The translations under genes and the position numbers were made by a program. The notes under the pieces were generated by a model that saw only the letters and a program-made list of their open reading frames with translations, did not search any database and was not told the DNA's origin. A stretch of 64,000 bases of DNA. It comes from Opitutales bacterium. Its GTDB lineage: Bacteria > Verrucomicrobiota > Verrucomicrobiia > Opitutales > PNEW01. Positions within the stretch are counted from its first letter, which is position 1; every line of letters starts with the position of its first letter. Below are positions 1,904 to 28,247 of this stretch, piece by piece. The stretch is from assembly GCA_965197745.1 (NCBI GenBank), contig CBDANS010000006.1, positions 1,344,001-1,408,000 of the forward strand, given 5' to 3'.

Positions 1904-2081
1904 TTAACCACTGAGACACAGTGGACGATAAGATTTTTTAAAAATCACTGCCGAGCGCAGCGAGATCTTCTAAAGCTACAAATAAAACATAGATAGGGAA
2001 CCCTGTATCGACCTTTTGAAAAACTTATCCGTGTAATCCGCGGTATTATTTAACTTTGCGGTCTCCGCGTCTCGGCGGTTA
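1904..2081. repeat. Composite ACCGCAGAG-family element with nested modules
   Basis: Arms TTAACCACTGAGACACAG / CTCCGCGTCTCGGCGGTTA; contains a CCGAG..GAGATC module and an ATCCGTGTAATCCGCGGT arm. Confidence 0.7.
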
Positions 2082-11814: not shown

Positions 11815-12100
11815 TAATATTTTATAAATAAAGAATAGCCACAGAAAGCACAAAAGGCACAAAAAAACTAACCGCTGAGGCGCAGAGGACGCGGAGATTT
11901 TAATTTAAAGTTTTATTTTCTCGATTTTATAACATTTCTCGGCGCTATTCGCGTCTCAGGTGATTCAAAGAATACTGACTGCGGATAACGCGGATAACAC
12001 GGATGTTGAGATATGGAGTGTAAGAGTCACGAATATTACCGAGGGCGAAGGCTGACATCCTCCAATTCGATATCAAAGAGAACATGGACATAAAATATTT

Positions 12101-12249
12101 CGTCGTGTCGAGAGTCGCCTACGCTTCACTCGCGTTTGCGAGGACAAGAACGTACCACTCACGAATATACACAACTAATTGCGTATATTCGTGAGAGGTA
12201 GTTCAAAACGCGCTTTTAGCGCTAAGCGTAGGCGACTCTCGACACGACG
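12101..12249. repeat. ~150-nt four-way-junction palindromic element, copy A
   Basis: Perfect 26-bp terminal stem (12101-12126 / 12224-12249) enclosing three hairpins; homologous to 19678-19831. Confidence 0.85.
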
Positions 12250-12409
12250 GAACCTTTATCGCCCTATTAGAAACTAATCCGTGTAATCCGCGGTATTATT
12301 AAACTTTTTGCTTTCTCTCTCTCTCTTGTGCCTTTTGTGGCCAACTCTTTCTTTTGGCTATTCACCAATCAGCAATTGATATTAAATCTATTCTCTAACT
12401 ACAATTAAA

Positions 12410-13366: not shown

Positions 13367-13599
13367 GAGGGCGATTAAAATAGAATGGAGAGCCACGCGT
13401 TAACTGTCGGCCATAGCCCACCGGGCGACGGATGATCATGGCCGTTATTATGCATTGTCATTGCGAGGATCCCGTATCTGCGGGGACGAAGCAATCCAGA
13501 AATTATGACTCAATATATATGTTGTGATTACCACTGTGAATATCTTTTATTTTGAATCATGGATCTTTCATCCCAAATTCGAATAATTATCATACCTAG

Positions 13600-14409
13600 G
13601 TGAATAGGAAAACAATGAGATATAAACTCCTCTGCGTATTCTTCTTATTTATCTCGGGTTGTTACACTGTACCTGAGACGGGCCGTAGCGCACTTAGCTT
13701 TATTCCCGATGCAGAATTAAAAGCGTTGTCTCTCCAGGAGTTCTCACGGTTAAAAATGACAGAAAGGATTTCCAGAAATTATGAAATGAACAATCGGGTA
13801 GAACGCATTGGGCATAATATCGCCCGGGTAGTGGGCAAGGATATCCCCGGTGCGGAATGGGAATTTGTCGTATTTGAGAACGACAATTTGATTAATGCTT
13901 TTGCCTTAGCGGGAGGTAAAGTGGGTGTCTATACCGGAATGCTTAAGATCGCGACTACTGACGATCTGCTAGCTACGGTCATTGGACATGAAATTGCGCA
14001 CGTTTCCGCTAAGCATGGCAATGAACGCCTTTCTCAGGGATTGTTAGTTGAGTTGGTTGGTAGTGGTTTAGAATCTGCGTTGGAAGATGACGACAGTGAT
14101 GAAAATAAGGAAAAAACCCGCCAGGCGATACTAAATGCCTATGGGTTGGGATCAATGGTAGGATACCTCCTACCATTCAGCCGACTTCAGGAAAATGAAG
14201 CCGATCATATAGGAGTACTCTACGCCGCTCGTGCCGGCTACGATCCTAGGGCTGCAATTGAATTGTGGCAAATGATGTCCAATAAGAAAAATTATTCTCC
14301 TCCTGCTTTTCTTACCTCACACCCGGCAGATCAGACCCGTATCAACAGGTTAAAAGAAAACCTGCCATTTGCCATGCGTGAATACGAAGCTGCGCGGGCA
14401 AGAGAATAA
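13600..14409 (+). CDS. M48 family metallopeptidase lipoprotein
   Basis: NAFALAGG, GHEIAH, FSRLQENEAD and SHP motifs; lipobox ISGC. Confidence 0.92.
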   Translation: MNRKTMRYKLLCVFFLFISGCYTVPETGRSALSFIPDAELKALSLQEFSRLKMTERISRNYEMNNRVERIGHNIARVVGKDIPGAEWEFVVFENDNLINAFALAGGKVGVYTGMLKIATTDDLLATVIGHEIAHVSAKHGNERLSQGLLVELVGSGLESALEDDDSDENKEKTRQAILNAYGLGSMVGYLLPFSRLQENEADHIGVLYAARAGYDPRAAIELWQMMSNKKNYSPPAFLTSHPADQTRINRLKENLPFAMREYEAARARE

Positions 14410-14419
14410 TGGGCGAGAA

Positions 14420-14481
14420 TATTGCCGATTTTTAATCACGAATGAACACGAATAGGAATTTAAAGGTAAAGAGACAGGCAC
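14420..14481 (+). repeat. 62-bp direct repeat, copy 2
   Basis: 59/62 identical to 13305-13366. Confidence 0.9.
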
Positions 14482-14544
14482 CGCGCGTCCCTCCATTCTC
14501 CTAATCTTTCATTTATTTTTTTCCTCTTGGGGCTATTAAGAATC

Positions 14545-15567
14545 TTACTCTTCGATCTTATCTATCATACTGTTGAAGGTCTCATCATCAAGCTTACGAT
14601 GGTGAAACCAGTTTTGCGAATTCCCGAGTATGTCATTCAGCTCATTGATGCGGTTAAGCACCTCTCTTACCTCGACGCGCGTGGTGCCGATATCTTTTGG
14701 ACGATAGCGCACGTGACAGGTATCGAGCAAAGCCTTCGTCTCGTCAAAACGCCAATCGCAGAGGTAATTGTTGATCAAGGTCCCCAGTGCTACGCTCTCA
14801 GCGTGCAAGAGTTCGCGTCTAAGGACCCACTCGAAGGCAATGGTGAAGACGTGATCAAGACTGTGCGCGATTTTCGGATTCCAGGTCGGCAGGTCGTAGC
14901 GTTCGCGATTGATCTCTGCGGCGACTCGAATGCCCGTCTCGTGGGGTTGTCCGTTTGCGTCCATGTCATTACTGAACTGACCTGCCCGCTCTTTTACCCA
15001 ATGGATGGTGGTTTCAGCCATGGCTTCGTCCCAGGGATGCCCTTCAAGTCCCTGATCGGTCCACCAACGCCAGGCGCCGACAATTGCCATATGGCAGATG
15101 CACTCGCCCATCCCCGCGCAGTTGAGCCGGGGCGGCGCCGAGCGGATGACCCCCGTGTCAAAAAGGAGGTACTCGGGGGATATCGCCTGTTTATGAAAAT
15201 CCCAGGTGTCCGGGTGACGCACTGCGAACAAGCCCTGGAATACTGAACCTGTCGAAACGATAGTGGGTATCATGATCAGCGGTTTGTCCAGTTTCCAGGC
15301 GACATATTTACCCACGTCCAGAGCGTTGCCGCCACCGATCGCTACCACCTGTTCGGCATCCGGCAGAGGCGGAACCAAATCGTCAAGATAAGCCGCACGC
15401 ATCCCCTGCTGGAATTCCAGGTGCCGGGGTGTGTGAGGGAAGAAATGTTCAACGTGAGACCACGCGCTGGGCGAGGTGATCGCAAGGTAAGATTCGTACT
15501 GGGGACCATGCTCTTTAAGCAGATCCGACCCGTAACGTGCATCCCAATCTGCTGATTTTCGATTCAT
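14545..15567 (-). CDS. Glycerol-1-phosphate dehydrogenase-like / DHQ-FeADH superfamily dehydrogenase
   Basis: IGGGNALDVGK, PTIVST and LLHAESVALG motifs. Confidence 0.75.
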   Translation of the reverse strand: MNRKSADWDARYGSDLLKEHGPQYESYLAITSPSAWSHVEHFFPHTPRHLEFQQGMRAAYLDDLVPPLPDAEQVVAIGGGNALDVGKYVAWKLDKPLIMIPTIVSTGSVFQGLFAVRHPDTWDFHKQAISPEYLLFDTGVIRSAPPRLNCAGMGECICHMAIVGAWRWWTDQGLEGHPWDEAMAETTIHWVKERAGQFSNDMDANGQPHETGIRVAAEINRERYDLPTWNPKIAHSLDHVFTIAFEWVLRRELLHAESVALGTLINNYLCDWRFDETKALLDTCHVRYRPKDIGTTRVEVREVLNRINELNDILGNSQNWFHHRKLDDETFNSMIDKIEE

Positions 15568-15650
15568 GTGATTATCGATTGGTTCTAGAGAATGTTTTTT
15601 GGCTAATTAGGCTTATTGAAAATAGTAATATGACCGATTTCTATATCTAT

Positions 15651-16014
15651 ATGAACCCTGATGTGATGAAGAAACGGACAAAAGCTTTTGCTATGCGGAT
15701 ACTATGGACAGTGGAACATTTACCTAAGGCTACAACAGCAGGAATTATAGGCAATCAAATCCTCCGAAGCGGAACCTCTGTGGCTGCGAATTACAGGTCA
15801 GCGTGCCGGGCAAGAAGTAAAGTAGAGTTTATTGCAAAATTTTGGAATTGCTGAAGAAGAATCCGATGAAACACTATTTTGGCTGGAACTTATTGAAGAG
15901 TCGAAAATGATTCCCTCTAAGCAGCTAAAAGATATCAAACAAGAGGCTACCGAAATTACTGCAATGATTGTTTCTTCACGTAAATCGGCCAGAGCAAGTG
16001 TTAATCATAAATGA
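15651..16014 (+). pseudogene. Four-helix-bundle protein (23S rRNA IVP / bAvd-like family), frameshifted
   Basis: QILRSGTSVAANYRSACRARS..FIAKF continues as GIAEEESDETLFWLEL after one extra T at 15840-15843. Confidence 0.85.
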
Positions 16015-16062
16015 TTCCTCAATTGCTTTATTTATTCTTCTCAATCGAAAATCGGCAATTGA

Positions 16063-17853
16063 TTACTGAGCTATGCTCAGTGAGGCCATGAAGCGGGCGG
16101 TAATCCAGAGGCTGAAAATAAGGAAAATACAGCAAGCGGTTAGCCAAAGCGCTCCGCGGTAATACCAACCGAGGCCGGGTTCCACGAGCGTTTCGATGGA
16201 ACTCCCGGGCCCGCAAAGTTTGTAAGCGCGATATGAATTATATAAATCTTCCAATCCGGCGGCGTCGATTTTTTCGTCAAAATCCAATTCCTTGGTATCG
16301 CCGTGTTTTTCCATCATTGGCAATCGGATTCCTACCTCTTTCAATCGGTTATCTTCTCCCAGGGGTGTGTTGAGTATGCAGTAAAAACGGTGAAGCAACA
16401 CATCCGGTTCCGGACGCGTCAGGATACTTACAATAGTGATCGCAGTAACGGAAACGATAGCCGGAGCGAAGACCGTAATGACAAAAGTATTTTCTTTCCA
16501 GAATGACATCCAGGTGGACAAATTAATGTCCGTATTGGGTGAGTAGTGGGCATTTGTATATTGGGTTATGAGCTGGCAAATAAAATAAGTGATCAGGCTT
16601 AATCCGAAACTGGCCCAGGTGCCTTGGCGGTTGGTGCGATTCCAGACAATGCCGAAAAAGAGAGGAATAGCTATAATGAGCCCAAAGGGGGTGAAGAACT
16701 TTATAAACACCTGGAGATTATCGAACTGCAATGCCATCCAACAGGAGAGAATGACAACAATAACACTCAATATACGGGCAGCGAGCAGATAAAAGTCGGA
16801 ACTGCGGTGGGGTAACAAACGTTTTCTGAAAAGATAGTCGACAATGATAGCGGCATTAGATGCGGATATAGTATCCATTGATGACATCAATGCCGCAAAG
16901 AAGCTGGCGATAAGAAGGCCGAGCAATCCCGTTGGCAGCAAGTCTTTCATGACAATTCCCCATGCCTGTTCGGGGTCGGCGAGATGAGGATTGTAGAGAA
17001 AAAATAAAAGACCATAGACGGCAAAGAGAATGGTGATCGTTCGTTTCCAGAGGTGTCCCCAACCGCATTGTGTCGCCGCACGCTCATTTTTACCAACGAC
17101 GATTAAGCTGAAAAGAATGGGTGTGGCCACGGCGCCGAAAGTACTGGCAAAAATAAGAGCAAAAATGTCTCGCGCCGGCAATTGTTTCGAATCCAGCGAC
17201 CAGTACTCTGGCGGTAATTGGCGAAGACCTTCAAAACCGTCAGCGGCTTGCCATAAAAAAGGCAGGAGAAGAAAACAGAATGCGGTCAAGGTCATGATTC
17301 CCTGAAACATATCGGTAAAGAGGGATGCCATCATACCCCCTGAACCTATGTACGCCGCCACCACCAAACCCGAGATGATTACCGTGTGCTCAACCGAAAG
17401 ACCGGTCAGTCCGGCTATGACCTTGCCACCCGCTAGAGCGAATAAACCGACATTGGCCAGAACAATGACAATGACCAGAAGCGCATAGACAGTGGCCACG
17501 TTCGGACCGTATCGCATTTCAAAAAATTCAGCAGGATTCAGCACGCGTGAGCGCTTATAAATAGGGGCGAAGAGATAATAGACGATGATACCAAAAAGAC
17601 CTGCCCACCAGTACCAGATACCGGAAAGACCGCTTTCATAGGATGCTCCAGCAACGACCACCGCTTCGGCACCGCCGACCACGGATGCGAAGACAAAAAT
17701 GAACGCAACCACTGGACCCCATTTACCCCCTGCGATGAAGAAATCACTAAGGGTTTTTGTCTTCTTCTTCCCCACCACCACACCAAGGAATGTTACAATG
17801 AGAAAATATGCTGCCAGGACTGCGAGATCGAGAGGGTGAAGATCAATATCCAC
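16063..17853 (-). CDS. Sodium:solute symporter family transporter
   Basis: DFFIAG, EFFEMRY, TDMFQG and AALMSSMD motifs; many TM helices. Confidence 0.92.
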   Translation of the reverse strand: MDIDLHPLDLAVLAAYFLIVTFLGVVVGKKKTKTLSDFFIAGGKWGPVVAFIFVFASVVGGAEAVVVAGASYESGLSGIWYWWAGLFGIIVYYLFAPIYKRSRVLNPAEFFEMRYGPNVATVYALLVIVIVLANVGLFALAGGKVIAGLTGLSVEHTVIISGLVVAAYIGSGGMMASLFTDMFQGIMTLTAFCFLLLPFLWQAADGFEGLRQLPPEYWSLDSKQLPARDIFALIFASTFGAVATPILFSLIVVGKNERAATQCGWGHLWKRTITILFAVYGLLFFLYNPHLADPEQAWGIVMKDLLPTGLLGLLIASFFAALMSSMDTISASNAAIIVDYLFRKRLLPHRSSDFYLLAARILSVIVVILSCWMALQFDNLQVFIKFFTPFGLIIAIPLFFGIVWNRTNRQGTWASFGLSLITYFICQLITQYTNAHYSPNTDINLSTWMSFWKENTFVITVFAPAIVSVTAITIVSILTRPEPDVLLHRFYCILNTPLGEDNRLKEVGIRLPMMEKHGDTKELDFDEKIDAAGLEDLYNSYRAYKLCGPGSSIETLVEPGLGWYYRGALWLTACCIFLIFSLWITARFMASLSIAQ

Positions 17854-17888
17854 TTTTCAATTGTCGATTGCCGATTGATTAATTATAC

Positions 17889-17988
17889 TAACCGCTGAGT
17901 CGCAGGGTTCGCCGAGATTTTTTAATTTGGGATTTCTTTTTCTTGGGTTTAAAGCTTTTTACTCTGCGTTCTCCGTGTCTCTGCGGTA
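17889..17988. repeat. ACCGCAGAG-family inverted-repeat element
   Basis: TAACCGCTGAGTCGCAGGG ... CTCTGCGTTCTCCGTGTCTCTGCGGTA, itself flanked by inward-facing CGATT/AATC heptamers. Confidence 0.75.
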
Positions 17989-18025
17989 TATTTCTTCAAT
18001 CAATAATAGGCAATGGTATGTGAAA

Positions 18026-19282
18026 TCAGAAATTAAGCAGGCGAATACTCAGGTAACTGAGTAAGCCGACCGAACACGCGGCCACTAATCCTACTAGAAG
18101 GGGTTTCAGACCAAGGGTTTTTATTTTAGAAAAACTTGTACTCAGCCCAAGCGAAGCCATAGCGAGCGTTAAACACCAGGTCACCACGGAGTGAGCTCCC
18201 ATTAAAAAATTATCCCAGGATTCCTGAGTGAAAACGGCAAAAGGTTTATCGCCGATATCGCCAAGAGAACGTATTATAGCCATGCATACAAAGACCACTA
18301 CGAATAGAGGGACCATTTGATGCCAGCGCGGGGGCTTCGTTTCAGAGGATTGTTCGCTGTCTTGCGCGCGCTGATAAAGCAGGGCCATAGTAGGTATCAC
18401 TACAATCATAAACAGGTTGCGAATTAATTTTGTGACCGTTGCCTCATCGAGAACCTGTGGCTCGAGATAGTGTTGCGCGTAAATTAATCCGGCTCCCGTG
18501 ACCTGTGAGGTATCGTGGATAGCGGTGCCCAGGAAGACACCGGCTTGATGAGCGTTTCCATCAAAAATCCAATGGGCGAAGTAGGGATAGAGAACGAGAC
18601 CGCACAATCCGTATAAGGTTACACAAGCAACGGCATAACTGACTTCATCTTCTTTTGCTTTAATCCCCACGGAAGCGGCAACTACCGCGCTTACTCCGCA
18701 TATGCTGGTCCCGACGGCTATCAGGGTCCCCAGGCGTGGCGGTAAATGTAATAGTCGTGTGAGCCCTGATACAATGAGTAGTGCGCCAATGATGCTAATA
18801 ACCACCACGGGCAGGCTATTTATTCCAATTTGCCCGATTGCAGCCATACTCAACCGCAATCCCAGCAGAGCAATACCAATTCTGAGGAGTCGCCTTACAC
18901 AAAAAACTAACCCGGGGACGTATTCGTCGGGAACCCCGATAATATTCCTGAAAGCAATACCGAAAATAATTATGAGCACGATCGGGCTTAAAGGGCTTTT
19001 TTCAAATCCCATAATCGTAATCCCCAACCAACTTGATATAATTCTGGCGAAGCTAGCCAGAACCAGAGCTAAAATGATTCCCGGAATAAGACCTGATAGA
19101 TCTGATAAAAATTTAAATAGTGCCGTGTCCGCTTTTTGCTCTTCAGGTATTGTCGTATCAATTCCGGCAAAATTGTCCCAATCCAAATCGCCCTCCATAC
19201 TTGCGAGAGAATTAGCCTGCTCGAGACTGAGATCAGCAAACCTTCTCTTCTGTCTGCTTAGGTTGCTGAGCTTACTATTCAT
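18026..19282 (-). CDS. YeiH / putative sulfate exporter family membrane protein
   Basis: GIALLG, GTSICGVSA, GTAIHDTSQV and TKLIRN motifs; start moved to ATG 19282 because the longer ORF runs through the tRNA. Confidence 0.9.
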   Translation of the reverse strand: MNSKLSNLSRQKRRFADLSLEQANSLASMEGDLDWDNFAGIDTTIPEEQKADTALFKFLSDLSGLIPGIILALVLASFARIISSWLGITIMGFEKSPLSPIVLIIIFGIAFRNIIGVPDEYVPGLVFCVRRLLRIGIALLGLRLSMAAIGQIGINSLPVVVISIIGALLIVSGLTRLLHLPPRLGTLIAVGTSICGVSAVVAASVGIKAKEDEVSYAVACVTLYGLCGLVLYPYFAHWIFDGNAHQAGVFLGTAIHDTSQVTGAGLIYAQHYLEPQVLDEATVTKLIRNLFMIVVIPTMALLYQRAQDSEQSSETKPPRWHQMVPLFVVVFVCMAIIRSLGDIGDKPFAVFTQESWDNFLMGAHSVVTWCLTLAMASLGLSTSFSKIKTLGLKPLLVGLVAACSVGLLSYLSIRLLNF

Positions 19283-19312
19283 GGGTGCGAGTAGGTCTAT
19301 AAAGCGAAAAGG

Positions 19313-19388
<76 letters not shown>

Positions 19389-19470
19389 ATGTTCTCCGCT
19401 TGGAAATTTGTGGATATAGACAAAATCTCCTTATTCCGTCAATTATCGATTATCGAATGTTTTCTGAAGA

Positions 19471-19907
19471 TTTACCGCTGAGACGCAAAGGGCGCTGAGA
19501 AATTAGTTTAGAATTTACTAAAGCTGATTTTCAAACCTTTAACTTTACGTGCTCCAATGCTTTGCGGTGATTCAAAGCATCCTAACCGCGAATAACACGG
19601 ATTGATACGGATGGAGAGGTATAGAGTGTAAAATTCACGAATATAAAATAGCTAAAAAAACATAGACAAAGAGGGGTTTTCGTCGGGCAGAGAATCACCT
19701 GTGCTATGCGCAAAAGCGCATTTTGAACTGGCTACTTACGAATATACACAACGAGTTGCGTATATTCGTAAGTAGTCGTTTTTGTACTCGCAAACGCGAG
19801 TGAAGCACAGGTGATTCTCTGCCCGACGAAACCCTTAATCTACTTATCCGCATAATTCGTTTAATCTGCGGTATTAAACTCTGCGTCCTCCGCGTCTCTG
19901 CGGTAAA
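19471..19907. repeat. Composite nested repeat cassette carrying four-way-junction element copy B (19678-19831)
   Basis: ACCGCTGAG outer arms, ACCGCG..ACGGAT inner arms, central 28-bp perfect stem; near-identical inverted copy without the central element at 25242-25480. Confidence 0.85.
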
Positions 19908-19928
19908 TCTCTTTAATTCGCAATCGGC

Positions 19929-20915
19929 TCACTTTTTTCCTCGAAAGAGGATTTTACCGAAGCGAGGTTGAATGGCATGGTCAAGAGCCTTTTTGAAATC
20001 GGATAAATTATACCATTCCTCTACTTTGGTGGAGAGGGTTCCCTCCTTAATGAGTTCATAAATATTCATGAACATGGAATCTATTTCCTCTTTAGAATGG
20101 GTGTGCATCCAGTGGTCCAACCAAAAACCAACCAGTTTCATCTTGTTGAATATCAAATAACGAGTGGGGTACCGCACGGGTTCAAAACTCATGGCGCCGA
20201 AAGTAACATGTGTCCCCCCGAAAGAGAGGGCTTTAACAAGATTAGTCGCGCTGTTCCCCCCGACGGAATTTAAGGCGAGCCGAATGACCTTATCCCCGGT
20301 AATTTCATTTATCGATTTCCAGTATTCATCCGTTTCGGATTTTACAACATGCGCCCCCATCTCAATGAGCCTATCAGCCAGCTCTATACGACGTACGATG
20401 TTAAAAGTCTTGAAGCCTAACTTTTTCGCGAGTTGAATAACAAACATACCTACAGCCGAATTTGCAGCGTTTTGAATGATCCAATCACCCGGATTCAGAT
20501 CGACAAAGTCATGAAGCAACCGCCACGCCGTCGTTGGATTAATAAAAATGGTCGCTGCCATTTCGAGAGGTAGCCCCTCGGGTAAAGCGGTTAATGCTTT
20601 TGCCTCTGCGACACAGGATTCCTGCCAGGTGCCGAGTAATTCCGGAAATTGCACCCATTGGCCAGCTGTCAGATGTTTCACGTTCTGGCCCACCTCGACG
20701 ATTTCTCCCACTCCTTCACGACCGGCTACCGCGGGAAGTTCTTTATTTCGACCGTAGCTTCCCATTATCATGCCGAAATCCGACGGGTTAATAGGCGAGG
20801 CCAACATCTGAATGTGTACCTGGTCTGGTCCGACTTCAGGTAAGGATACTTCCTCTGCAGTAAGACACTCAGCGGGATTACCGCACTGATAGTATCGGAT
20901 AGCTAGGGCAGACAT
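19929..20915 (-). CDS. MDR-family trans-2-enoyl-CoA/ACP reductase (MECR-like)
   Basis: SPINPSD, GREGVG, INPTTA, QNAANSAVG and LNSVGG motifs. Confidence 0.88.
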   Translation of the reverse strand: MSALAIRYYQCGNPAECLTAEEVSLPEVGPDQVHIQMLASPINPSDFGMIMGSYGRNKELPAVAGREGVGEIVEVGQNVKHLTAGQWVQFPELLGTWQESCVAEAKALTALPEGLPLEMAATIFINPTTAWRLLHDFVDLNPGDWIIQNAANSAVGMFVIQLAKKLGFKTFNIVRRIELADRLIEMGAHVVKSETDEYWKSINEITGDKVIRLALNSVGGNSATNLVKALSFGGTHVTFGAMSFEPVRYPTRYLIFNKMKLVGFWLDHWMHTHSKEEIDSMFMNIYELIKEGTLSTKVEEWYNLSDFKKALDHAIQPRFGKILFRGKK

Positions 20916-21019
20916 TTCAATTTTCGATTTGCGATTGGCGATTGAACCTGGCTGTTATTAAAACTGATACTTGTATCATACCTCGTGGATCCTGAATCGT
21001 GCATCCTGCATCTTGTTAT

Positions 21020-21811
21020 TCAAATCGTCATCGAAGAAAACCCACCGTCTACGACAAATTCGCTGCCGGTGATGAAGGACCCTGCCTGATCACTGGCCAT
21101 AAGTATTGTCGCACCAATAAGTTCACTGGCTTCGCCAAACCGACTCATGGGCGTGTGGCGCATTATATTTTCGAGCCTTTCGCCCACCAGATATTTACGA
21201 TTCAAGTCGGTGGGAAAGAAACCGGGGACAAGCGTATTCACGCGGATATTATGGGGGGCCCATTCGCGAGCGAGATTTTTGGAAATATTGTGAACAGCTG
21301 CCTTTGTAGCGGAGTAGGTAAAAACGCGAGAAAGCGGGATGAGCCCCGACATCGAGCCGATATTAATCATGCTGCCCGTAATTTTATTTTCTATCATGTA
21401 ACTACCGAATATCTGGCTCGTGAAAATAATCGATTTCAAGTTGATGTTGAGAATATTTTCAAGTTCATCTTCTTGAATATCGACAAAAGGTGTGGGAGCG
21501 GTAGTACCCGCACCATTTACAAGGATGTCCACTTTTCCTGATTTTTTTATCACCCGCGTGAGCAATTCTTTGACTTCTTCTTTTTGGGTAACGTCAGCGC
21601 GTTCAAAGTAGGCTTTATCCTGGAATTGATGAATATTTTTAAGACGCGCTACAGCTTTCTCTTCGTCGCGTCCAACAAGCACTACTTCAGCGCCAGCGCC
21701 GGCCAATCCTTCAGCCATCGCCCCGCAGAGCACCCCCGTGCCCCCGATAATAACCGCCGTTTTTCCCTCGAGTCCGAAAAGTTTGTTTAAATATTCCAGG
21801 TTATTATTCAC
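21020..21811 (-). CDS. SDR oxidoreductase (KduD/UxuB-like sugar-acid dehydrogenase)
   Basis: [21 protein letters not shown] and VDGG motifs; near kdgK. Confidence 0.85.
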
Positions 21812-22792
21812 CGCAGAGGCGCAAAGAGCGCAGAGTTAATTTTTTAGATTTTTGTTTTAGTAATATTCGAAATTTAATTATCAACGAGCTCAGCAAATTG
21901 GCAATTAATACTTATTTCTCACCGCTGAGTTCGAACAACAAAAAGAAAAGCCATATTATCAAGAAAAGAAAACCCTAAATTAAAAGTCTCAGCACCTCAG
22001 CTGTTAACGACTAATATTCATCGCAGAGACACTTAATAAATTAAGGTTATAATAACCACTGTTTCGCGGAGAGCGCCTGAAAAGCTATAAGATCAATAAA
22101 TTAAAACCCTAAATTAAAAAACTCAGCGCCCTCAGCGGTGAACGACTACTATTCAGGAAGTTGATTCACTATACGTTTTATACCGCATTTTAATAAATGA
22201 GTGTTAAAGTTTATAATTAGACCGATATTAAAATTGGTTAATTTTAAATAAGTCAAAAGTTGGGCTTCGTGGATGGGTTGATTATATTCTACAGCTTTTA
22301 ATTCAAGTATTAACCTATCTTCTACAAGAATATCTATGCGATATCCTGCTTTTAACTTTAGCCCCTTATAATTGATGGGCAATTCTAACTGACGCTTAAA
22401 TGATATCTTTCTATTTTCTAATTCGTAAGCAAGGCACGTTTCATAAGCGGATTCTAATAAACCTGGTCCGAGCTGCTTATGAACATCAATAGAAGCACCA
22501 ATTACCGTTTCCGTTAACCCATCATCTTTATCAGTCATCTCCACATCCCCCATTCCTAATTACGGCAGAGACACTTAATAAATTAAGGTTATAATTACCA
22601 CTGTGTCGCGGAGAGCGCCTGAAAAGCTATAAAATCAATAAATTAAAACCCTAAATTAAAAAACTCAGCGACCTCAGCGGTGAACATAAATATTTACTTC
22701 CAAACCGTTGGTAACCCAGAGGAAAAGTAAATGAATCAAGAAAACCCACCCTAAATTAAAATCTCGGCGACCTCTGCGCCTCCGCGGTGAAT
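21806..22792. mobile_element. Putative GxxExxY-carrying element bounded by ACCGCAGAG inverted repeats
   Basis: 30-bp terminal inverted repeats 21806-21835 / 22763-22792 (25/30 match); internal 121-bp direct repeats 22023-22143 / 22565-22685 (117/121) flank the gene. Confidence 0.6.
22149..22553 (-). CDS. GxxExxY protein (PD-(D/E)XK-fold nuclease family)
   Basis: LGPGLLESAYE, YRIDILVE, ELKAV, AQLLTYLK and GLIINF motifs. Confidence 0.95.
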   Translation of the reverse strand: MGDVEMTDKDDGLTETVIGASIDVHKQLGPGLLESAYETCLAYELENRKISFKRQLELPINYKGLKLKAGYRIDILVEDRLILELKAVEYNQPIHEAQLLTYLKLTNFNIGLIINFNTHLLKCGIKRIVNQLPE

Positions 22793-22801
22793 CTTAAAAA
22801 T

Positions 22802-23887
22802 TCAACGTTTAATTCGGGCGCTGCCGCCTTTAGCGACGTGTTCTACTTCTTCCAGGGTTATTTGTGAAGTGTCTCCACCGGTGGATTGCAGAAGGGCACC
22901 GTGCGCTGCACTGAAATCCGCGATTTCCTGCGGCTCCATAGCGTTGAGAAAGCCGTAAGCGACACCGCTGGAGAATCCGTCACCGCCACCAACGCGATCT
23001 TCAATTTCAAGATCCTCAAATCGGGTCGATTCATAAAAACGGTCATCGTGCCAAAGAATTCCGCTCCAATTATTGATCAGTCCGCTTTTAACTTCGCGCA
23101 GAGTAGTACAGACGACTTTGACATTGGGGTAGGTGTCGACAACACGTTCAACCATCTTTTTAAAACCTTCAATGGGGAGTTCCTTTAAATTTTCATCCAC
23201 ACCTTCGACTTCAAATCCCAGTGCTTTTTGAAAATCTTCCTCATTGCCGATGAGCACATCCACATGGGGAGCGATACTGGTATTAGCGGCAATAGCTTCC
23301 TCTGAGCTCCACAACTTGGAGCGGAAATTGAGATCGTAGCTGACAACGGTACCGTTCTCGTGCGCCGCCGTCGCTGCTTCATTGACTATTTTTGCGCAGT
23401 GAGGACTGAGCGCGCTCATGATTCCACCCGTATGTAACCATCGGGTCTTCTGTTTTTCAAAAATATCCTTGTAATCAAAATCAGATGGATCCGCCAGGGA
23501 TATCGCGCTTTGGCCGCGATCATACATCGTCACTGAAGCGCGCACCCCGGTGCCCACTTCGGTAAAGTTGAGACCGACGCGGCCCGCGCGCCCGATACCG
23601 TCGTATTCTTCCATTATGACATTGGAGGTATCCATGCCAACGGCGCGGGCGTGGTTAATTAAGATTTTGCCTACAGGATTGTCGGGCAGTTTACTGACAA
23701 AACCCCCACGCAGTCCCAATCGTGATATGGCGTAGGCCACATTGTACTCACCGCCACCTGCCCAAACTTCCAGGGTTTGAGCATACTCCAGTCGACCGTG
23801 ACCACCGGGTGAAAGGCGAATCATGCATTCGCCGAGGGAGAGTAGATCGAACTTCGTTTCTGAGGAATCAAGCGTTTGAATGCTCAT
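22802..23887 (-). CDS. kdgK: 2-keto-3-deoxygluconate kinase (PfkB family)
   Basis: GECMIRL, GGGEYNVA, YDLNFRSKLW and DRVGGGDGF motifs. Confidence 0.85.
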   Translation of the reverse strand: MSIQTLDSSETKFDLLSLGECMIRLSPGGHGRLEYAQTLEVWAGGGEYNVAYAISRLGLRGGFVSKLPDNPVGKILINHARAVGMDTSNVIMEEYDGIGRAGRVGLNFTEVGTGVRASVTMYDRGQSAISLADPSDFDYKDIFEKQKTRWLHTGGIMSALSPHCAKIVNEAATAAHENGTVVSYDLNFRSKLWSSEEAIAANTSIAPHVDVLIGNEEDFQKALGFEVEGVDENLKELPIEGFKKMVERVVDTYPNVKVVCTTLREVKSGLINNWSGILWHDDRFYESTRFEDLEIEDRVGGGDGFSSGVAYGFLNAMEPQEIADFSAAHGALLQSTGGDTSQITLEEVEHVAKGGSARIKR

Positions 23888-23914
23888 ATTTATTATATAT
23901 GTATAAAGTTTGAT

Positions 23915-25006
23915 TTATTCAGCCACTTTAAAATCATTTATCTTCCAGATGGGCAGGCTGCATTCCACAGCAACTTCATTAAAAGCTTCGATTTCATTTT
24001 CACTAAAGAGGAGGCCCCCGTTTTTCTCAGATCTTTCAGCCGCTTCGGCCTCAAGCTGTCCTGGGAACAGACAATGCTCATTTCCGTGGCCGAAGATGTC
24101 TTCAATCACCGCCTTAACATTTTCTCTTTGCGTGCGACCTTGTGCAAAAGCACCCGCGCTGAGCGCTTCGGGATGCATGACTTGAAAGAAAAAACAGGGG
24201 GTGTGTTTTTCTTCATCTTTGGCCCAGCGACTGCGCACCGTAGGGAGGCTCCCTCCAATTAAAGCAGCGATGAGCTCATCCATAAGGCATAGTCCGTAAC
24301 CCTTATGGTCCCCAAATGGGAGCATGGCTACTACTTTGGAAGGATCTGTAGTAACATTACCCTCACGATCAACGGCGGCGTTGGGTGGTAGAGGTTGACC
24401 TTCACGGTCGAGTTGTTGCATGCGACCGGTAGATATGACCGAAGTTGCCCAATCAATGACAATCGGAAAACCAATCACTTCGGTAGTGGGAAATCCCCAA
24501 CTATGTGGATTCGTTCCAAGCGTAGCCGCTTTACCCTTGAAGGGCACCACCTCAGCCAGTGCTGCGGTGCAATTAGTGTAAGCAATATAGCCCTTTTTCG
24601 CGACCTCCATGACATAACCGCCGCCCCATAAATAATGAAAAGCGTTATCAACGCTGACCATCCCGACGCCATACTTATCTGCCAGTTCAATACAGGTTTC
24701 CATCGCTTCGGAAGCGACGGCTTGCCCCAGTTTTTGATTGCAGTTCCATATTTCAGCAGCCGCAAAGCGTGAGGGCTTTTTTTCAATAACCGCTCCTGGT
24801 TTGCACCCATCAGACCCGCTTCCGTAATGGCGATCGAGATGTAAACCCTTAATCGCATCATGGGTGCGGATTCCATGGCGCGAAGCATTGGCGGCTACAC
24901 GGACGGCATGCTTAACTTCATCATCGGTATAACCACGTTTGAGATACGCGGCCTCAACTAACGCGTTATGGGTGCTTTCCGGAACGGCATAAAACTTTTC
25001 AAGCAT
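23915..25006 (-). CDS. Ldh_2 family (YiaK/AllD/ComC-type) oxidoreductase
   Basis: HGIRTH, LGTNP, DWATS and HKGYGL motifs; start ATG 25006 (upstream extension is repeat-derived). Confidence 0.88.
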   Translation of the reverse strand: MLEKFYAVPESTHNALVEAAYLKRGYTDDEVKHAVRVAANASRHGIRTHDAIKGLHLDRHYGSGSDGCKPGAVIEKKPSRFAAAEIWNCNQKLGQAVASEAMETCIELADKYGVGMVSVDNAFHYLWGGGYVMEVAKKGYIAYTNCTAALAEVVPFKGKAATLGTNPHSWGFPTTEVIGFPIVIDWATSVISTGRMQQLDREGQPLPPNAAVDREGNVTTDPSKVVAMLPFGDHKGYGLCLMDELIAALIGGSLPTVRSRWAKDEEKHTPCFFFQVMHPEALSAGAFAQGRTQRENVKAVIEDIFGHGNEHCLFPGQLEAEAAERSEKNGGLLFSENEIEAFNEVAVECSLPIWKINDFKVAE

Positions 25007-25241
25007 ACTCAATTGCGGATTTTCGATTGCCAATTGTCGATTTAAATAGCCACAAAAAGCACAAAAAACACAAGATGAAATTAAGAACGAAGATATTTTT
25101 ACAGGGAGAGCGGGGAGGTCATAGAGAAATAATTCTGGAGGGACGGAGGATGGTCGGCCATAGCTCCGCATCTGCAAGAGCGACGGCTGATCGCGTCCGT
25201 GATGAAGTATTAATTGTCATTGCGAATTGCGATTGAAGAGA

Positions 25242-25480
25242 TTAACCGCAGAGACGCGAAGAACGCAGAGTTTAATACCGCAGATTAAACGAATTAAGCG
25301 GATAAGTAGATTAGAGGTAGATAAAGGGTTTCTCCTCTTTTTCTATGTTTTTTTAGCTATTTTATATTCGTGAATTTTATACTCTATACCTCTCCATCCG
25401 TATCAATCCGTGTAATTCGCGGTTAGAATGCTTTGAATCACCGCAGAGCATTGGAGCACGTAAAGTTAAAGGTATGAAAA
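25242..25480 (-). repeat. Inverted copy of the 19.5-kb composite cassette, lacking the central four-way element
   Basis: Reverse complement aligns with about 19530-19680 and 19829-19907; the ~150-nt insert is absent at about 25332. Confidence 0.9.
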
Positions 25481-26440
25481 TTATACATCATTAGCTTGGG
25501 CGAGAGGGGGTCTGCCTTCAAAGAAATTGATGAGATTTCTCGTAGCCATACCGGCCTGTCGCTGCACGCTCTGGAAGGTCCGCGATCCGATATGCGGAGT
25601 GATAATACAGTTTTTTGCTTTTAAAAGGGGGTGATCAGCTGGAGGTGGTTCACGATCGAGAACATCGGCGCCATAACCACCCACTTGATCATTGTCTAAG
25701 GCGCGGACCAGTGCGGCAGTGTCGATAAGTTCCCCTCGCGCGGTGTTAAGAATAATCACTCCCGGTTTCATTAAACCGATTTGCTCCGCATCGATCATGT
25801 GACGCGTGTGATCATTAAGTTTAGTATGAAGGCTGATAATATCCGCATTCGCAAAAAGCGCGTTTAAGGAATGACAACGTTCTATCGAGTGCTCTTTGCC
25901 AAAATCGTCATCCCAGTAATTACCATAAGCCATGACTTTCAGCCCAAATGCTTTTGCCCGTATCGCCACTTCCTTTCCGATCCTGCCGAGACCGACAATT
26001 CCCATCGTCTTCCCCATAATTTCGTTACCGGTGAGCCGTTTCCAGTCTCCCTCTCGGGTATAATTAGCTTCGGTCACAATTTTACGCTCCAGTCCCAAAA
26101 GGAGACCGAATGTATGTTCCGCCACGGTTGTGTGGTTAACGCCGGGAGTGAAGAGCACGGGTATCTTTTTCTCCGTGGCGTAAACGACATCAATCTTATC
26201 GAGACCAATACCGTATTTACTGATGACTTTAAGTTGAGGAAGAGATTTATCAATTACGGCACTTGTAATGGCATCATCGCCGCAGAGAAATCCATCAATG
26301 GTCCCGACACAATCCAGCATTTGTTTTTCAGTAAGCGGCCCGCGTTCGCGAACGATTTCAAAATTAGCATCTTCCAGCAATTGGTGATGTTCACCCGGAT
26401 TATCCTGGTAGGATGTTGTTGTGAGTAAGATACGTGGCAT
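25481..26440 (-). CDS. D-3-phosphoglycerate dehydrogenase-like D-2-hydroxyacid dehydrogenase
   Basis: GLGRIG, NTARG, DVLDREP and TPHIG motifs; start ATG 26440. Confidence 0.88.
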   Translation of the reverse strand: MPRILLTTTSYQDNPGEHHQLLEDANFEIVRERGPLTEKQMLDCVGTIDGFLCGDDAITSAVIDKSLPQLKVISKYGIGLDKIDVVYATEKKIPVLFTPGVNHTTVAEHTFGLLLGLERKIVTEANYTREGDWKRLTGNEIMGKTMGIVGLGRIGKEVAIRAKAFGLKVMAYGNYWDDDFGKEHSIERCHSLNALFANADIISLHTKLNDHTRHMIDAEQIGLMKPGVIILNTARGELIDTAALVRALDNDQVGGYGADVLDREPPPADHPLLKAKNCIITPHIGSRTFQSVQRQAGMATRNLINFFEGRPPLAQANDV

Positions 26441-26444
26441 ATTT

Positions 26445-26503
26445 CGATTGTCGATCGATTGTCGATTGTCGATTGTCGATTGTCGATTGTCGATTGTCGA
26501 TTG
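26445..26503. repeat. (CGATTGT)n heptamer tandem array
   Basis: Six perfect units at 26456-26497 plus flanking complete and partial units. Confidence 0.95.
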
Positions 26504-26667
26504 AAGAATAGCTACAAAAAGCACAAAAGACACAAGAGAATTAAGGAAATGAATAGCTACCACCGGGTCCTGCAGCTGCGGTATGGGTTGCAGAATACAG
26601 GTCGAATCTAACGGATACGTTATGGTATATCAACCTCTGAACCCTGAACCCCGAACCCTATGATTTC

Positions 26668-28247
26668 TCACGACCGGGACAGTTGGCGGGGCAGTGAAAT
26701 GTCGGTCTGCATAATTTTATCTAATAGTTGAATGCGCAAATCATCACGTAAATTTTTATTTTTGGAGGTGTCCCAAAGATTGAAATATTCATCGGGATCT
26801 TCATGGAGATCAAATAGTTCACCGTATTCCTGCCCTGAATAGCAGGTCAAACGGTAGCGTTCGGTTACGAGGGTGCGCATTTTAAATCCCAGGTAATCTT
26901 CATCCATTTCTACCAGTGCGGTAGAGTCTGTCGATTTATCTGTTCCCGTAATTACCTGGACCAGGCTACGACCGGGCCAGGGCGATGGCGCATCTGGGGC
27001 TTCAGGAGATCGGGGTATATCACCCGCCGGAATAGGGACCCCCGCGATATCCAGTATGGTGGGAGCAAAATCGAGCAGACTGCAAACGCCATTGTGAACA
27101 GATCCCGCTTCGACTATACCGGGCCAGCATACAAGAAAAGGGACACGTATGACACCGTCGTAATGATAGGGTCCCTTGCCCCACATCCCGTGATCTCCAA
27201 GTGCTTCGCCATGATCGGCGAGAAAAATAACGACGGTATTATTCTCCAGTTTATTCGTCTTCAACGCATGCATGACGCGACCCACCTGATCATCCACGAG
27301 GTTGATAATGCCATAGTAATGTGTGCCGCGCATTCTGCGTAGTAAGGTGCCGTTGCGTTCATCGCCTGGGATTTGTTGCCGCTTGTCATAATGTCCTTTT
27401 CGGCCATGGCGCGAAAATGGGGAGGCAGATCATCTAATTCACCTTCTCTTGACAGAGGGGGTGGGACTTCCTCCGGGTCGTAGTTGTAGCAATAGGGAGC
27501 AGGTGGAGCAAAGGGGGAATGCGGGTCACCAAAACTGCACAGCGCACAGAAGGGTTGGGAATTATTTTTCTCTCCATAGTTGTTAAGGAAATCAATGGTG
27601 CGATCCGCGATATAAGTTGTGGGATGAAGTTCATGAGGCAGAGCCCATCTGTAAGATTGCCGGTTGAAAAGATCTTTGGCGGGGCTTGATTTTTCCAATT
27701 CCACGCGATCGTAAAACAGGTGCGCCTTGTCCGGATGCTCCGATTTAAGCCAGGCCTCATAGTGACCAACGGAACCGTGACCATGGCCGTTGCAAAGGTC
27801 TATATGCTGGAGGCCATAATAGGGGAGTGGGAGTTCTTTAATTATTCCCATGCGCCAAAGTTGTGAGCTCTCCGGATATTTTTTCGGATCTAATTTCTCT
27901 AAAGGAATGTCATTCGGAGTATTGCTGGAATTTAAATGTATTTTTCCCGAACAATAAGTCAGGTACCCATTTTGTCGCAGCGCTTCAGTAAAAGTGGGTA
28001 TGGATGGATTCAGGGGAATGCCGTTCATCCGTACCCCATGGCCGCGTGGAGTGAGCCCGGTAAAAAGAGAGGCGCGCGTTGGCATGCAAAGTGGTTGCGG
28101 GCTGTAAACGCGAGAGAAATTCATACCGCTTTTTGCCAGATTATCGATATGGGGCGTGCGAACGATTGGATGTCCCGCATAACCGAAGCAACGGGGATGC
28201 CATTGATCAGTGATGATGAACAGAAAATTCGGGCGTGCTTTTACCAT
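26668..28247 (-). pseudogene. Sulfatase (S1), split by a frameshift
   Basis: CMPTRASLFTG motif, GKIH; C-terminal DHGE and ELFDL in a second frame; 2-nt slip in the TGTGTG run at 27320-27325. Confidence 0.88.

What the first reader, a model, noticed from the sequence alone, without database searches (positions are those of the whole stretch)
19471..25480. Filled and empty alleles of the same composite cassette, inverted 6 kb apart
25242-25480 is a near-identical reverse-complement of the 19.5-19.9 kb cassette. It reads ..CATAGAAAAAGAGGA-GAAACCCT.. where the other reads ..CATAGACAAAGAGGGG-[~150-nt element]-AAACCCT... A further empty-looking site lies at ~1985-2060, matching the flanks of copy A. 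The four-way element is therefore gained or lost as a unit at a specific site. The inverted pair could also invert the intervening reductase-SDR-GxxExxY-kdgK-Ldh block.
Basis: seen in the sequence. Interest (0 to 1): 0.7.

Follow-up and report, generated by a model that had tools for sequence, protein, structure and literature searches.

The report
Four-way palindrome nested in mosaic repeat
Two inverted copies of a non-coding repeat in a marine Opitutales genome differ by one clean 152-base cross-shaped palindrome, a rare DNA module whose paired arms change together; it belongs to the known world of bacterial intergenic repeats and is not a gene switch.

Summary
19527-19917 and 25232-25481 are inverted copies of one non-coding cassette (148 nt at 96%, 87 nt at 92%). 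They differ by a single 152-nt indel whose ends lie at the base of a four-way palindrome.

- **Not alleles.** They are paralogous copies of a mosaic, nested-palindrome intergenic repeat. This family is concentrated in the window: 15 of 34 genome-wide hits to its terminal repeat lie here.
- **A discrete, rare unit.** The four-way module has 3 copies in this 4.45-Mb genome. One more lies in a related genome and one on a metagenome contig.
- **Same place each time.** Four of the five copies sit at the same cassette position, in the loop of a small central hairpin.
- **Arms co-vary.** 20 of 61 pairs changed on both sides, with no G·U excess, so the constraint acts on DNA rather than on one RNA strand.
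- **It can flip in place.**
- **Gain or loss is unresolved.** I lean slightly to loss.
- **Inversion is unsupported.** Gene order is collinear in three relatives, no recombinase lies nearby, and no valid inversion joint appeared in contigs of four public runs.

It is closest to REPIN, BIME and MITE-type repeats but fails their membership tests. I rate it a new variant of a known kind, of moderate interest.

The parts
19471..19503 (+). Outer left terminal inverted repeat of the 19.5-kb cassette (ACCGCWGAG... type). It is absent from the 25.3-kb copy.
   Evidence: family D1; pairs with 19878-19905 in the DNA fold; profile of 15 such repeats.
19527..19674 (+). Left homology arm shared with 25334-25481 in inverted orientation.
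   Evidence: I1, 148 nt, 96%; 142 of 148 identical, longest perfect run 38 nt.
19676..19833 (-). Four-way palindromic module, filled copy. The strand given is that of the covariance model. The 152-nt indel against the 25.3-kb copy is 19675-19826.
   Evidence: fold; 173.3 bits; indel; exact 246-nt contigs in 3 of 4 runs.
19831..19917 (+). Right homology arm, including the right terminal repeat at 19878-19905.
   Evidence: I2, 87 nt, 92%.
25232..25481 (-). Empty, left-truncated inverted copy of the cassette. The junction without the module is at 25319-25333. The copy starts at the stop codon of the 2-hydroxyacid dehydrogenase gene.
   Evidence: The DNA fold is no better than shuffles (z -0.44).
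12096..12254 (+). Second four-way module. It is 79.6% identical to the 19.7-kb copy and in the opposite orientation relative to its cassette flanks.
   Evidence: fold -64.3 kcal/mol, z -12.9; 171.5 bits.
12037..12075 (+). Small hairpin insert (TACCGAG...GACATC type) nested in the 12-kb cassette. It is absent from the 19.5-kb cassette but shared with the third filled cassette at C6:365k.
   Evidence: D18, I22; alignment.
1985..2060 (+). Empty cassette centre with the same module order and no four-way module.
19313..19388 (-). tRNA-Phe(GAA) next to the 19.5-kb cassette.
19929..25177 (-). Gene block between the inverted cassettes, all on the minus strand: zinc ADH, SDR, GxxExxY nuclease, PfkB kinase, Ldh_2.
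   Evidence: Collinear in relatives.

Best explanation
The locus holds two paralogous copies of a non-coding, mosaic, nested-palindrome intergenic repeat that has multiplied locally in this marine Opitutales genome. The 19.5-kb copy is complete and has both terminal inverted repeats. The 25.3-kb copy is inverted, lacks the left terminal repeat and lacks one inner module.

That module is a discrete palindrome of about 155 nt. As single-stranded DNA, or as an extruded cruciform, it forms a four-way junction with a 28-29-bp outer stem, two short hairpins and one long hairpin. It sits in the loop of a small hairpin at the centre of the cassette.

It behaves as a self-contained DNA unit in four ways:
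- It is copied along with its cassette.
- It can flip in place.
- It is present or absent with a junction at the base of its stem.
- Its arms stay complementary while their sequence drifts.

Because G·T and A·C mismatches are equally rare, the constraint acts on DNA, or equally on both strands, and not on one RNA. I infer that foldability is kept either because the unit is handled as folded single-stranded DNA, as REPINs are thought to be, or because mismatches in the hairpin are corrected arm against arm.

Shown: the anatomy, copy number, covariation, the flip, and absence from orthologous sites in relatives. Inferred: the mechanism and the direction of the 19k/25k difference. On direction I lean to loss, or skipping of the hairpin when the truncated 25.3-kb copy was made (about 55%), over insertion into the 19.7-kb copy (about 45%).
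For: - **Arms and indel:**
- **Fold:**. The empty copy folds no better than chance.
- **Copy census:**
  - BLAST and covariance-model searches find 3 copies in G000.
  - 1 of 3 other genomes of the family has a copy.
  - 1 of the 2 metagenome stretches that matched the pattern is a real copy.
- **Covariation over 5 copies:**
  - 95.1% of 304 cells are paired.
  - 20 of 61 pairs changed on both sides.
  - 0 of 500 shuffles reach this.
  - Slid controls give 1 to 3 such pairs.
- **No strand bias:** 5 G·T cells against 8 A·C cells.
- **The sub-hairpins are not separate repeats:** each was found only inside the copies.
- **Same site:** in the 19k, 12k, C6:365k and G001 copies the module ends immediately before the same AACC/AATC...TTATCG...CTTATCC module.
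- **Copied with its cassette:** the 12k and C6:365k cassettes share both the small hairpin insert and the four-way module.
- **Flip in place:** in G001 and on L015 the module lies about 120 nt after homologous GxxExxY genes but in opposite orientation.
- **Recent arrival of both cassettes:** neither is present at the orthologous intergenic sites of G001 and G002.
- **Local proliferation:** 15 of 34 hits to the terminal-repeat profile lie in this window.
- **Precedent:** compensatory changes are described as common in REPIN hairpins (PMC3116915, passages read).
- **For the lean to loss:**
  - The nearest relative of the 19.7-kb module is only 79.6% identical, while the cassette flanks are 96 to 98% identical.
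  - The 25.3-kb copy is truncated.
  - The C6:944k site keeps an apparent stub of an outer arm.
Against: - **Small sample:** only five copies from three sources, and kin are not independent. The G001 and L015 copies are homologous units.
- **No transposase, target-site duplication or donor copy** was found, so mobility is not shown.
- **Against the lean to loss:**
  - The 25.3-kb copy keeps an 11-nt stretch that matches the family consensus and is missing next to the module in the 19.7-kb copy. That would fit an insertion-linked change.
  - Module similarity (19k-12k 79.6%, 12k-third 73.2%) does not follow flank similarity (12k-third highest, 84 to 88%).
  - On L015 the module lies in a context without the cassette's right-hand module.
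- **Gene conversion** between nearby cassettes could have homogenised the flanks, which would make the donor argument void.
- **An RNA role is not excluded:** selection on transcripts of both strands would also give Watson-Crick-only covariation.
- **The empty junction** at 25.3 kb was not confirmed by an independent contig.
Confidence: 0.68

Rival explanations
1. Active site-specific insertion. The four-way module is a mobile element that inserts, in either orientation, into the loop of the cassette's central mini-hairpin. It entered the 19.7-kb copy after the cassette duplicated, possibly by cut-and-paste from a sister site.
For: - The same position in 4 of 5 copies, and both orientations seen.
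- The junction lies at the base of the stem.
- The 19.7-kb copy has a derived 11-nt deletion 7 nt from the junction.
- Module and flank similarities are incongruent.
- On L015 the module stands without the cassette's right-hand module.
- The same genome carries other small hairpin inserts nested in repeats (earlier notes).
- A RAYT-like Y1 gene exists.
Against: - No copy more than 80% identical that could have been the donor.
- Only 3 copies in the genome.
- No target-site duplication.
- The termini are not conserved between copies (alignment).
- The orientation difference can arise in place (G001 against L015).
- No excision or insertion junction was seen in the contigs of 4 runs, and contigs drop rare variants.
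Confidence: 0.3
2. A host-serving transcript element. The module, and the cassette around it, acts as a two-way transcription stop or 3'-end protector between genes. Its pairing is therefore selected in the RNAs of both strands.
For: - All 5 copies are intergenic and downstream of at least one gene. Three of the 5 lie between convergent genes.
- Watson-Crick-only covariation without G·U excess fits a need to fold on both strands.
- A-rich left and T-rich right flanks are seen by eye at several copies.
- REP-type repeats are said to be hypothesised to act in termination and mRNA stability (abstract of PMC3733652, search listing).
Against: - The simple terminator scan found no site at the module.
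- There is no Rfam match.
- The sister cassette works without it, and relatives lack both cassettes at these sites.
- A 29-bp perfect stem is far more than a terminator needs.
Confidence: 0.15
3. An invertible segment. The inverted cassette pair serves to invert the 5.3-kb ADH-to-Ldh_2 block.
For: Inverted arms of 148 nt and 87 nt at 96% and 92% lie 5.3 kb apart. Homologous recombination between them is physically possible.
Against: - Gene order and strand are collinear in G001 and G002, and in the pieces of G003.
- All genes from 16063 to 28247 share the minus strand.
- The longest perfect identity is 38 nt.
- No recombinase lies nearby. The only one found in the window is at 51449-53440.
- The joints listed link module-like repeats inside the block, with 31-45 or fewer letters on the shorter side and at 90% likeness. 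None links the unique flanks. Short-read contigs could not bridge a 390-nt repeat anyway.
Confidence: 0.04
4. Assembly artefact or chance palindrome.
For: The genome is a metagenome-assembled genome in 7 contigs, and repeats are error-prone in assemblies.
Against: - Exact 246-nt contigs across both junctions in 3 of 4 independent runs from two studies.
- Four further copies with compensatory changes, two of them from other assemblies.
Confidence: 0.02

Closest known systems
REPINs and REP/BIME repeats with RAYT (Y1 HUH) transposases. Sources: PMC3116915, passages read; PMC2817692, PMC3333891 and PMC3733652, search listings and abstract starts only.
   Same: Intergenic, non-coding and palindromic. 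Two inverted arms form a long hairpin with an alternative 'clover' form. Compensatory changes occur in the hairpin. The repeats are arranged as mosaics of modules. A single RAYT-like Y1 gene is present in the genome.
   Different: Only 3 copies, not tens to hundreds. The arms are not themselves REP hairpins. A GTAG or CGTC tetranucleotide appears only in some copies and inside the stem. The Y1 gene scores below the curated cut-off (66.6 against 80 bits) and is not flanked by the module. The inner part is three unrelated hairpins that give a four-way junction.
Bacterial MITEs and modular repeats: Correia/NEMIS, ERIC, RUP, BOX. The names and their length variants are recalled. NEMIS, ERIC and small dispersed repeats are named in PMC3116915.
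   Same: Terminal inverted repeats, an intergenic position, and size variants caused by an internal block that is present or absent.
   Different: No target-site duplication. No parent insertion sequence with the same ends. Very low copy number. The ends diverge between copies while their pairing is kept.
Small dispersed repeats of Nostoc (Elhai et al. 2008). I did not see this paper. It is cited in the earlier notes of this scan and named in PMC3116915.
   Same: Small hairpin units nested inside other repeats at fixed positions, with no known enzyme.
   Different: Those units are 21-27 nt or a little more and numerous. This one is about 155 nt, branched and rare.
Parvovirus/AAV inverted terminal repeats with flip and flop forms (recalled, not tested here).
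   Same: A branched palindrome of about 150 nt, with an outer stem plus small inner hairpins, found in two orientations of its inner part.
   Different: The viral repeat is a T-shaped three-way telomere of a linear single-stranded genome with Rep nicking. Here the module is an internal chromosomal four-way element, and no Rep-like gene was found beside the copies examined. This is an analogy of form only.

Membership tests
REPIN / REP-RAYT system | Two inverted copies of a short REP, each itself a small imperfect palindrome with a conserved GTAG or CGTC head | tested here: not met
   The outer arms are not self-palindromic. In the 5-copy alignment, CGTC occurs near the arm start in 2 of 5 copies and GTAG inside the arm in 3 of 5. 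The motif names are recalled from the title and abstract of PMC3733652.
REPIN / REP-RAYT system | High copy number (tens to hundreds per genome) | tested here: not met
   3 copies in 4.45 Mb. 1 copy in G001 and 0 in G002 and G003.
REPIN / REP-RAYT system | A cognate RAYT gene flanked by the repeats | tested here: not met
   One Y1 gene (C6:163146-163742) scores 66.6 bits to NF047646, below the cut-off of 80. BLAST and the covariance model find no copy of the module near it, and its flanks read differently.
REPIN / REP-RAYT system | Hairpin kept by compensatory changes | tested here: met
   20 of 61 pairs changed on both sides, with 0 of 500 shuffles as high. The precedent is in PMC3116915.
MITE | Terminal inverted repeats | tested here: met
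   An outer stem of 28-31 bp, 97% complementary (I21, I18).
MITE | Target-site duplication | tested here: not met
   No direct repeat flanks any of the 5 copies (read by eye).
MITE | A parent insertion sequence with the same ends | tested here: not met
   The arms match only themselves in the genome, allowing up to 6 substitutions in 28-29 nt. No transposase ORF adjoins any copy.
Mosaic intergenic repeat (BIME-like), for the cassette as a whole | An intergenic composite of repeat modules in variable combinations and alternating orientation | tested here: met
   The alignment of 11 cassette centres shows modules present or absent. Terminal repeats occur in both orientations. The fold is a nested palindrome.
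Recombinase-driven invertible segment | An adjacent site-specific recombinase, with both orientations observed | tested here: not met
   The only recombinase in the window is 26 kb away. One orientation is seen in G000, G001, G002 and the parts of G003. There is no valid joint in 4 runs.
Known structured RNA (Rfam 15) | A match to a curated covariance model | tested here: not met
   Over 11500-26000, on both strands and up to E = 1, the only matches are tRNA-Phe and a chance hit of 20.4 bits.
Intrinsic terminator | A GC-rich hairpin followed directly by a T run | tested here: not met
   The scan of 19250-20000 found one site at 19256-19271 and none at the module. The scan of 25000-25600 found none. 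The scan counts at most 20 pairs and loops of 3-8, so a branched element could escape it.

The most novel reading that the evidence does not exclude
The four-way module is a new kind of low-copy, structure-defined mobile DNA. It would be recognised not by its sequence ends but by its Holliday-junction-like fold in single-stranded or extruded DNA. A structure-specific nuclease encoded in trans would cut and rejoin it: the RAYT-like Y1 protein, or a GxxExxY PD-(D/E)XK nuclease such as the one 120 nt from it in G001 and on L015. It would target hairpin loops and flip between two forms as parvoviral terminal repeats do.
Probability: 0.1. Interest if true: 0.7.

Novelty: new variant of a known kind. 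Interest (0 to 1): 0.36.

Why it matters
Bacterial intergenic repeats are abundant, and how they move and persist is poorly understood. This case is unusually readable. A rare, branched palindrome keeps a four-way fold through 20 compensated pair changes, sits at one defined spot of a mosaic repeat, flips in place, and is present in one of two near-identical sister cassettes.

The sister pair is a natural before-and-after comparison for testing whether such modules spread by insertion into hairpin loops or are pruned by hairpin bypass. Watson-Crick-only covariation is also a warning for RNA-motif hunters: strong covariation can come from DNA palindromes.

It does not change the reading of the neighbouring sugar-acid genes, and there is no sign of a regulatory inversion.

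Tried and rejected
- **Rfam** over 11500-26000 gave nothing but tRNA-Phe.
- **Wider searches for the module:**
  - BLAST in 40 relatives found only a 45-nt partial match in G001.
  - The covariance model found it in G001 alone among 150 other genomes sampled from the order.
  - Among 150 other genomes sampled from the phylum it gave only G243 at 28.5 bits. On folding, that hit is a plain long hairpin with related terminal repeats, not a four-way module.
  - The two genome samples overlap.
- **Pattern scans:**
  - Genome contigs returned 1 stretch, which is G001's record.
  - Metagenome contigs returned 2 stretches. L015 is real; L014 matches only a 14-nt hairpin, at 8 bits.
  - Viral contigs returned 0.
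- **Link to GxxExxY genes:**
  - The module lies next to such a gene in G001 and on L015.
  - The other 8 PF13366 loci of G001 and G002 have no module.
  - The 5 of those loci that I scanned for inverted repeats have no comparable palindrome.
  - The window's own GxxExxY protein is only 30% identical to those two.
  - I therefore dropped the link as a claim and keep it as a lead.
- **The inner hairpins as separate dispersed repeats:** not found.
- **A strict regular expression for the terminal repeat** was too narrow: 55 and 51 core hits against about 25 expected. I replaced it with a profile.
- **Expression:** no RNA holder was listed.
- **Reads and contigs:**
  - One joint in X3 skips 19565 to 19810. 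It has only 22 letters on its shorter side and 8 shared letters, so I read it as a contig-end effect.
  - The 'opposite strands' joints 19875/22748 and 19926/25075 appear in all four runs. They join repeat modules and not the unique flanks, at 90% likeness, so I read them as contigs from other repeat loci.
  - Parts of 23.0-24.9 kb had no cover in some runs.
- **More of the L015 record:** my attempt to search it was answered 'record not held', and I did not pursue it.
- **Earlier notes of this scan:** nothing overlapped this place or these sequences.


Full report
**1. The observation**

The repeat finder reports two inverted arm pairs:
- 19527-19674 against 25334-25481, 148 nt at 96%.
- 19831-19917 against 25232-25318, 87 nt at 92%.

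One search counts 142 of 148 and 80 of 87 identical positions. The longest perfect runs are 38 nt and 34 nt.

A gapped alignment has 240 matches and 15 mismatches. It shows a 152-nt gap (19675-19826, present only in the 19.7-kb copy) and an 11-nt stretch present only in the 25.3-kb copy. The junction reads GAGG(G/A)G | AAACCC and can be placed only to within 1-2 nt.

The 152 nt plus a few flanking bases fold as single-stranded DNA into a four-way junction: an outer stem of about 29 bp, a short hairpin, a long hairpin and another short hairpin (-68.2 kcal/mol, z -14.8). The empty copy folds no better than its shuffles (z -0.44). The site at 1985-2060 has the same module order without the element.

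**2. Not an artefact**

Contigs of four public runs from three studies were laid on 18500-26500. An exact 246-nt contig covering 19637-19882 bridges both junctions in X1, X2 and X5. No bridging piece for X3 was among the pieces listed. No listed piece bridges the empty junction at 25319-25333, so that side rests on the assembly.

**3. What surrounds it**

The genome is a 4.45-Mb assembly in 7 contigs. Earlier notes of this scan call it a marine Opitutales bacterium. The record title of its relative G001 reads 'MAG: Opitutales bacterium'.

All genes from 16063 to 28247 lie on the minus strand:
- a sodium:solute symporter
- a Cons_hypoth698 (PF03601) protein
- tRNA-Phe
- a zinc ADH
- an SDR
- a GxxExxY nuclease (PF13366, TIGR04256)
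- a PfkB kinase
- Ldh_2
- a 2-hydroxyacid dehydrogenase
- a sulfatase in two ORFs

The 19.5-kb cassette runs from about 19471 to 19910. It is bounded by imperfect terminal inverted repeats of the ACCGCWGAG... type, which pair in the fold. Inside it, further arms of the ACCGCGRAT... / ...ATCCGCGGT type are also inverted. The whole is therefore a nested palindrome with the four-way module near its apex.

The 25.3-kb copy begins at the stop codon of the dehydrogenase gene and lacks the left terminal repeat. A profile of 15 terminal repeats finds 34 hits in the genome, 15 of them in this 64-kb window. The family is small and has multiplied locally.

**4. Copies of the four-way module**

BLAST and a covariance model built from the copies find three copies in the genome:
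- 19676-19833, on the model's minus strand
- 12096-12254, plus strand
- C6:365816-365973, plus strand

Outside the genome:
- G001, another genus of the same family, has one copy. G002 and G003 have none.
- Among 150 other genomes sampled from the order, only G001 matched.
- Among 150 sampled from the phylum, only a 28.5-bit hit appeared, and it folds as a plain hairpin.
- A 26-letter pattern found G001's record in genome contigs.
- In metagenome contigs it found two stretches. L015 499-657 is a full copy at 144.3 bits. L014 is only a 14-nt hairpin.
- It found nothing in viral contigs.

The three inner hairpins and the outer arms do not occur on their own elsewhere in the genome. The module is therefore one unit and not an assembly of dispersed mini-repeats.

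**5. Covariation and its meaning**

On the five-copy alignment:
- 95.1% of 304 cells form standard pairs.
- 20 of 61 pairs have changes on both sides.
- 0 of 500 shuffles reach the observed values on four of the five measures, and 1 of 500 on the fifth.
- Sliding the partners by 1-3 columns leaves 1-3 such pairs.

The alignment was fitted to the model, which favours the structure. However, the first three-copy MAFFT alignment already showed 16 of 61 such pairs.

Non-Watson-Crick cells number 21, one of them a gap:
- 5 G·T
- 8 A·C
- 3 T·T
- 2 A·G
- 2 A·A

There is thus no excess of wobble pairs on either strand. This argues against selection on a single RNA strand. It fits a DNA-level palindrome, or equal constraint on both strands. 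The junction sequences between the helices are the most conserved parts.

**6. Position and orientation**

In the 19k, 12k, C6:365k and G001 copies the module ends directly before the same cassette segment, AACC or AATC followed by a TTATCG-like and a CTTATCC-like stretch. On L015 the right flank is different.

The empty cassettes have a small hairpin at that place, with a stem of the GGG/CCC kind, and the module occupies its loop. I judged this by eye at window 25.3k and 2.0k, C6:1228k and 944k, and C7:566k and 301k.

Relative to its cassette the module is reversed in the 19.7-kb copy. That does not require separate insertions. In G001 and on L015 the module lies about 120 nt after homologous GxxExxY genes, with 80.7% identity over 610 aligned positions, yet in opposite orientation. 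That gene-plus-module unit lies on different sides of the orthologue of window gene 36072-37496 in the two sources.

**7. Gain or loss**

*For loss, or skipping of the hairpin when the 25.3-kb copy was made:*
- The 19.7-kb module's nearest relative is 79.6% identical, while the cassette flanks are 95.7% and 98.1% identical. No recent donor exists in this 92%-complete genome.
- The 25.3-kb copy is a truncated derivative.
- The 12k and C6:365k cassettes share both a small hairpin insert and the module, so the module is copied along with cassettes.
- The empty site at C6:944k keeps about ten letters that equal the left flank plus the first letters of G001's outer arm. This looks like a deletion stub.

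*For gain:*
- The 25.3-kb copy keeps 11 nt that agree with the family consensus and are missing 7 nt from the module in the 19.7-kb copy.
- Module similarity does not follow flank similarity.
- The module occurs on L015 without the cassette's right-hand module.
- The genome has other small inserts nested in repeats (earlier notes).

Gene conversion between neighbouring cassettes could also have made the flanks alike without dating the indel. I leave the direction open with a slight lean to loss, 55 to 45.

**8. Inversion of the block**

The order and strand of tRNA, ADH, SDR, kinase, Ldh_2, 2-hydroxyacid dehydrogenase and sulfatase are collinear in G001 and G002, and in the pieces held for G003. 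Both cassettes are absent from the orthologous intergenic sites there. So is the roughly 1-kb stretch carrying the GxxExxY gene. Those sites hold other repeat modules instead.

No recombinase gene lies near. The one in the window is at 51449-53440. The joints listed connect repeat modules inside the block, not the unique flanks. Short-read contigs could not bridge a 390-nt repeat in any case. Inversion by homologous recombination remains physically possible but has no support.

**9. Comparison with what is known**

The nearest described things are the following:
- **REPINs and BIMEs with RAYT transposases.** In PMC3116915 I read passages stating that REP doublets form hairpins, that compensatory changes are common, that a 'clover' form exists and that excision footprints are asymmetric. 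For PMC2817692, PMC3333891, PMC1525189 and PMC3733652 I saw only listings and abstract starts.
- **MITE-like modular repeats** such as Correia, ERIC, RUP and BOX (recalled).

The module fails the tests for both. Copy number is 3. There is no self-palindromic REP arm, no repeat-flanked RAYT, no target-site duplication and no parent element. The only Y1 gene scores 66.6 bits against a cut-off of 80 and has no module beside it.

The flip of a branched palindrome of about 150 nt recalls the flip and flop forms of parvoviral terminal repeats. That is a remembered analogy of form and not a tested relation.

A full-text search for 'GxxExxY' found 3 papers, 2 of them listed. Neither title concerns such repeats, and I did not open them. 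I found no description of this module, but I ran no search aimed at Opitutales repeats. The claim 'not in print' therefore rests only.

**10. Verdict**

The thing itself is a new variant within the known class of palindromic intergenic repeats. It is notable for its four-way fold, its low copy number and its strong DNA-level covariation.

Noticed in passing
window 21795-22794: The GxxExxY (PF13366/TIGR04256) gene at 22149-22553 sits inside a repeat cassette and is bracketed by 121-nt direct repeats (22023-22143 and 22565-22685, 97%). The whole stretch of about 1 kb is missing between the SDR and kinase genes of G001 and G002. The genome has only one other, partial, PF13366 match.
   Followed up: partly
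G001 (L009 1020-1657) and L015 1-657: In two other sources the four-way module lies about 120 nt downstream of a GxxExxY gene. That gene-plus-module unit sits on opposite sides of the orthologue of window gene 36072-37496, which suggests the unit moves as a whole. Eight other GxxExxY loci in G001 and G002 have no module.
   Followed up: partly
window 12037-12075, 33390-33422, 39124-39162; C6:365k: Small hairpin inserts of the TACCGAG...GACATC...CCAA type are nested in cassettes. They resemble the tiny hairpin inserts that earlier notes on this genome describe inside IS3 transposase genes (D17, D18, I22).
   Followed up: no
window 26668-28247: A sulfatase is read as two overlapping ORFs, 27261-28247 for the N-terminal part and 26668-27333 for the C-terminal part. 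G001 and G002 align across the whole span, so this is probably a frameshifted gene or an assembly error.
   Followed up: no
window 51449-54927: A large serine recombinase (Resolvase + Recombinase + zinc ribbon, 663 aa) lies next to a 2-hydroxyacid dehydrogenase split into ORFs at 53965-54444 and 54493-54927. This may be an integrated element that disrupted the gene.
   Followed up: no
window, whole: 15 of the genome's 34 hits to the ACCGCWGAG-type terminal repeat lie in this one 64-kb window. Orthologous intergenic sites in G001 and G002 hold different repeat modules (GCCACAAAAGGCACAAAA type, CGATTG heptamer runs, TACCGAG hairpins), so intergenic repeat content turns over quickly between genera.
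   Followed up: partly
window 23915-25177: The Ldh_2 ORF as listed starts at a TTG at 25177, but similarity to G001 and G002 ends at about 25021-25080. The true start is probably further in, and the intergenic gap is larger than the ORF list suggests.
   Followed up: no
G243 (L028 1490-1670): A genome of another family in the phylum has a long hairpin with terminal repeats of a related type (ACCACGGAGACACGGAG...) around CACGAAT-rich arms. The cassette's outer repeat type is therefore wider spread than the four-way module.
   Followed up: no
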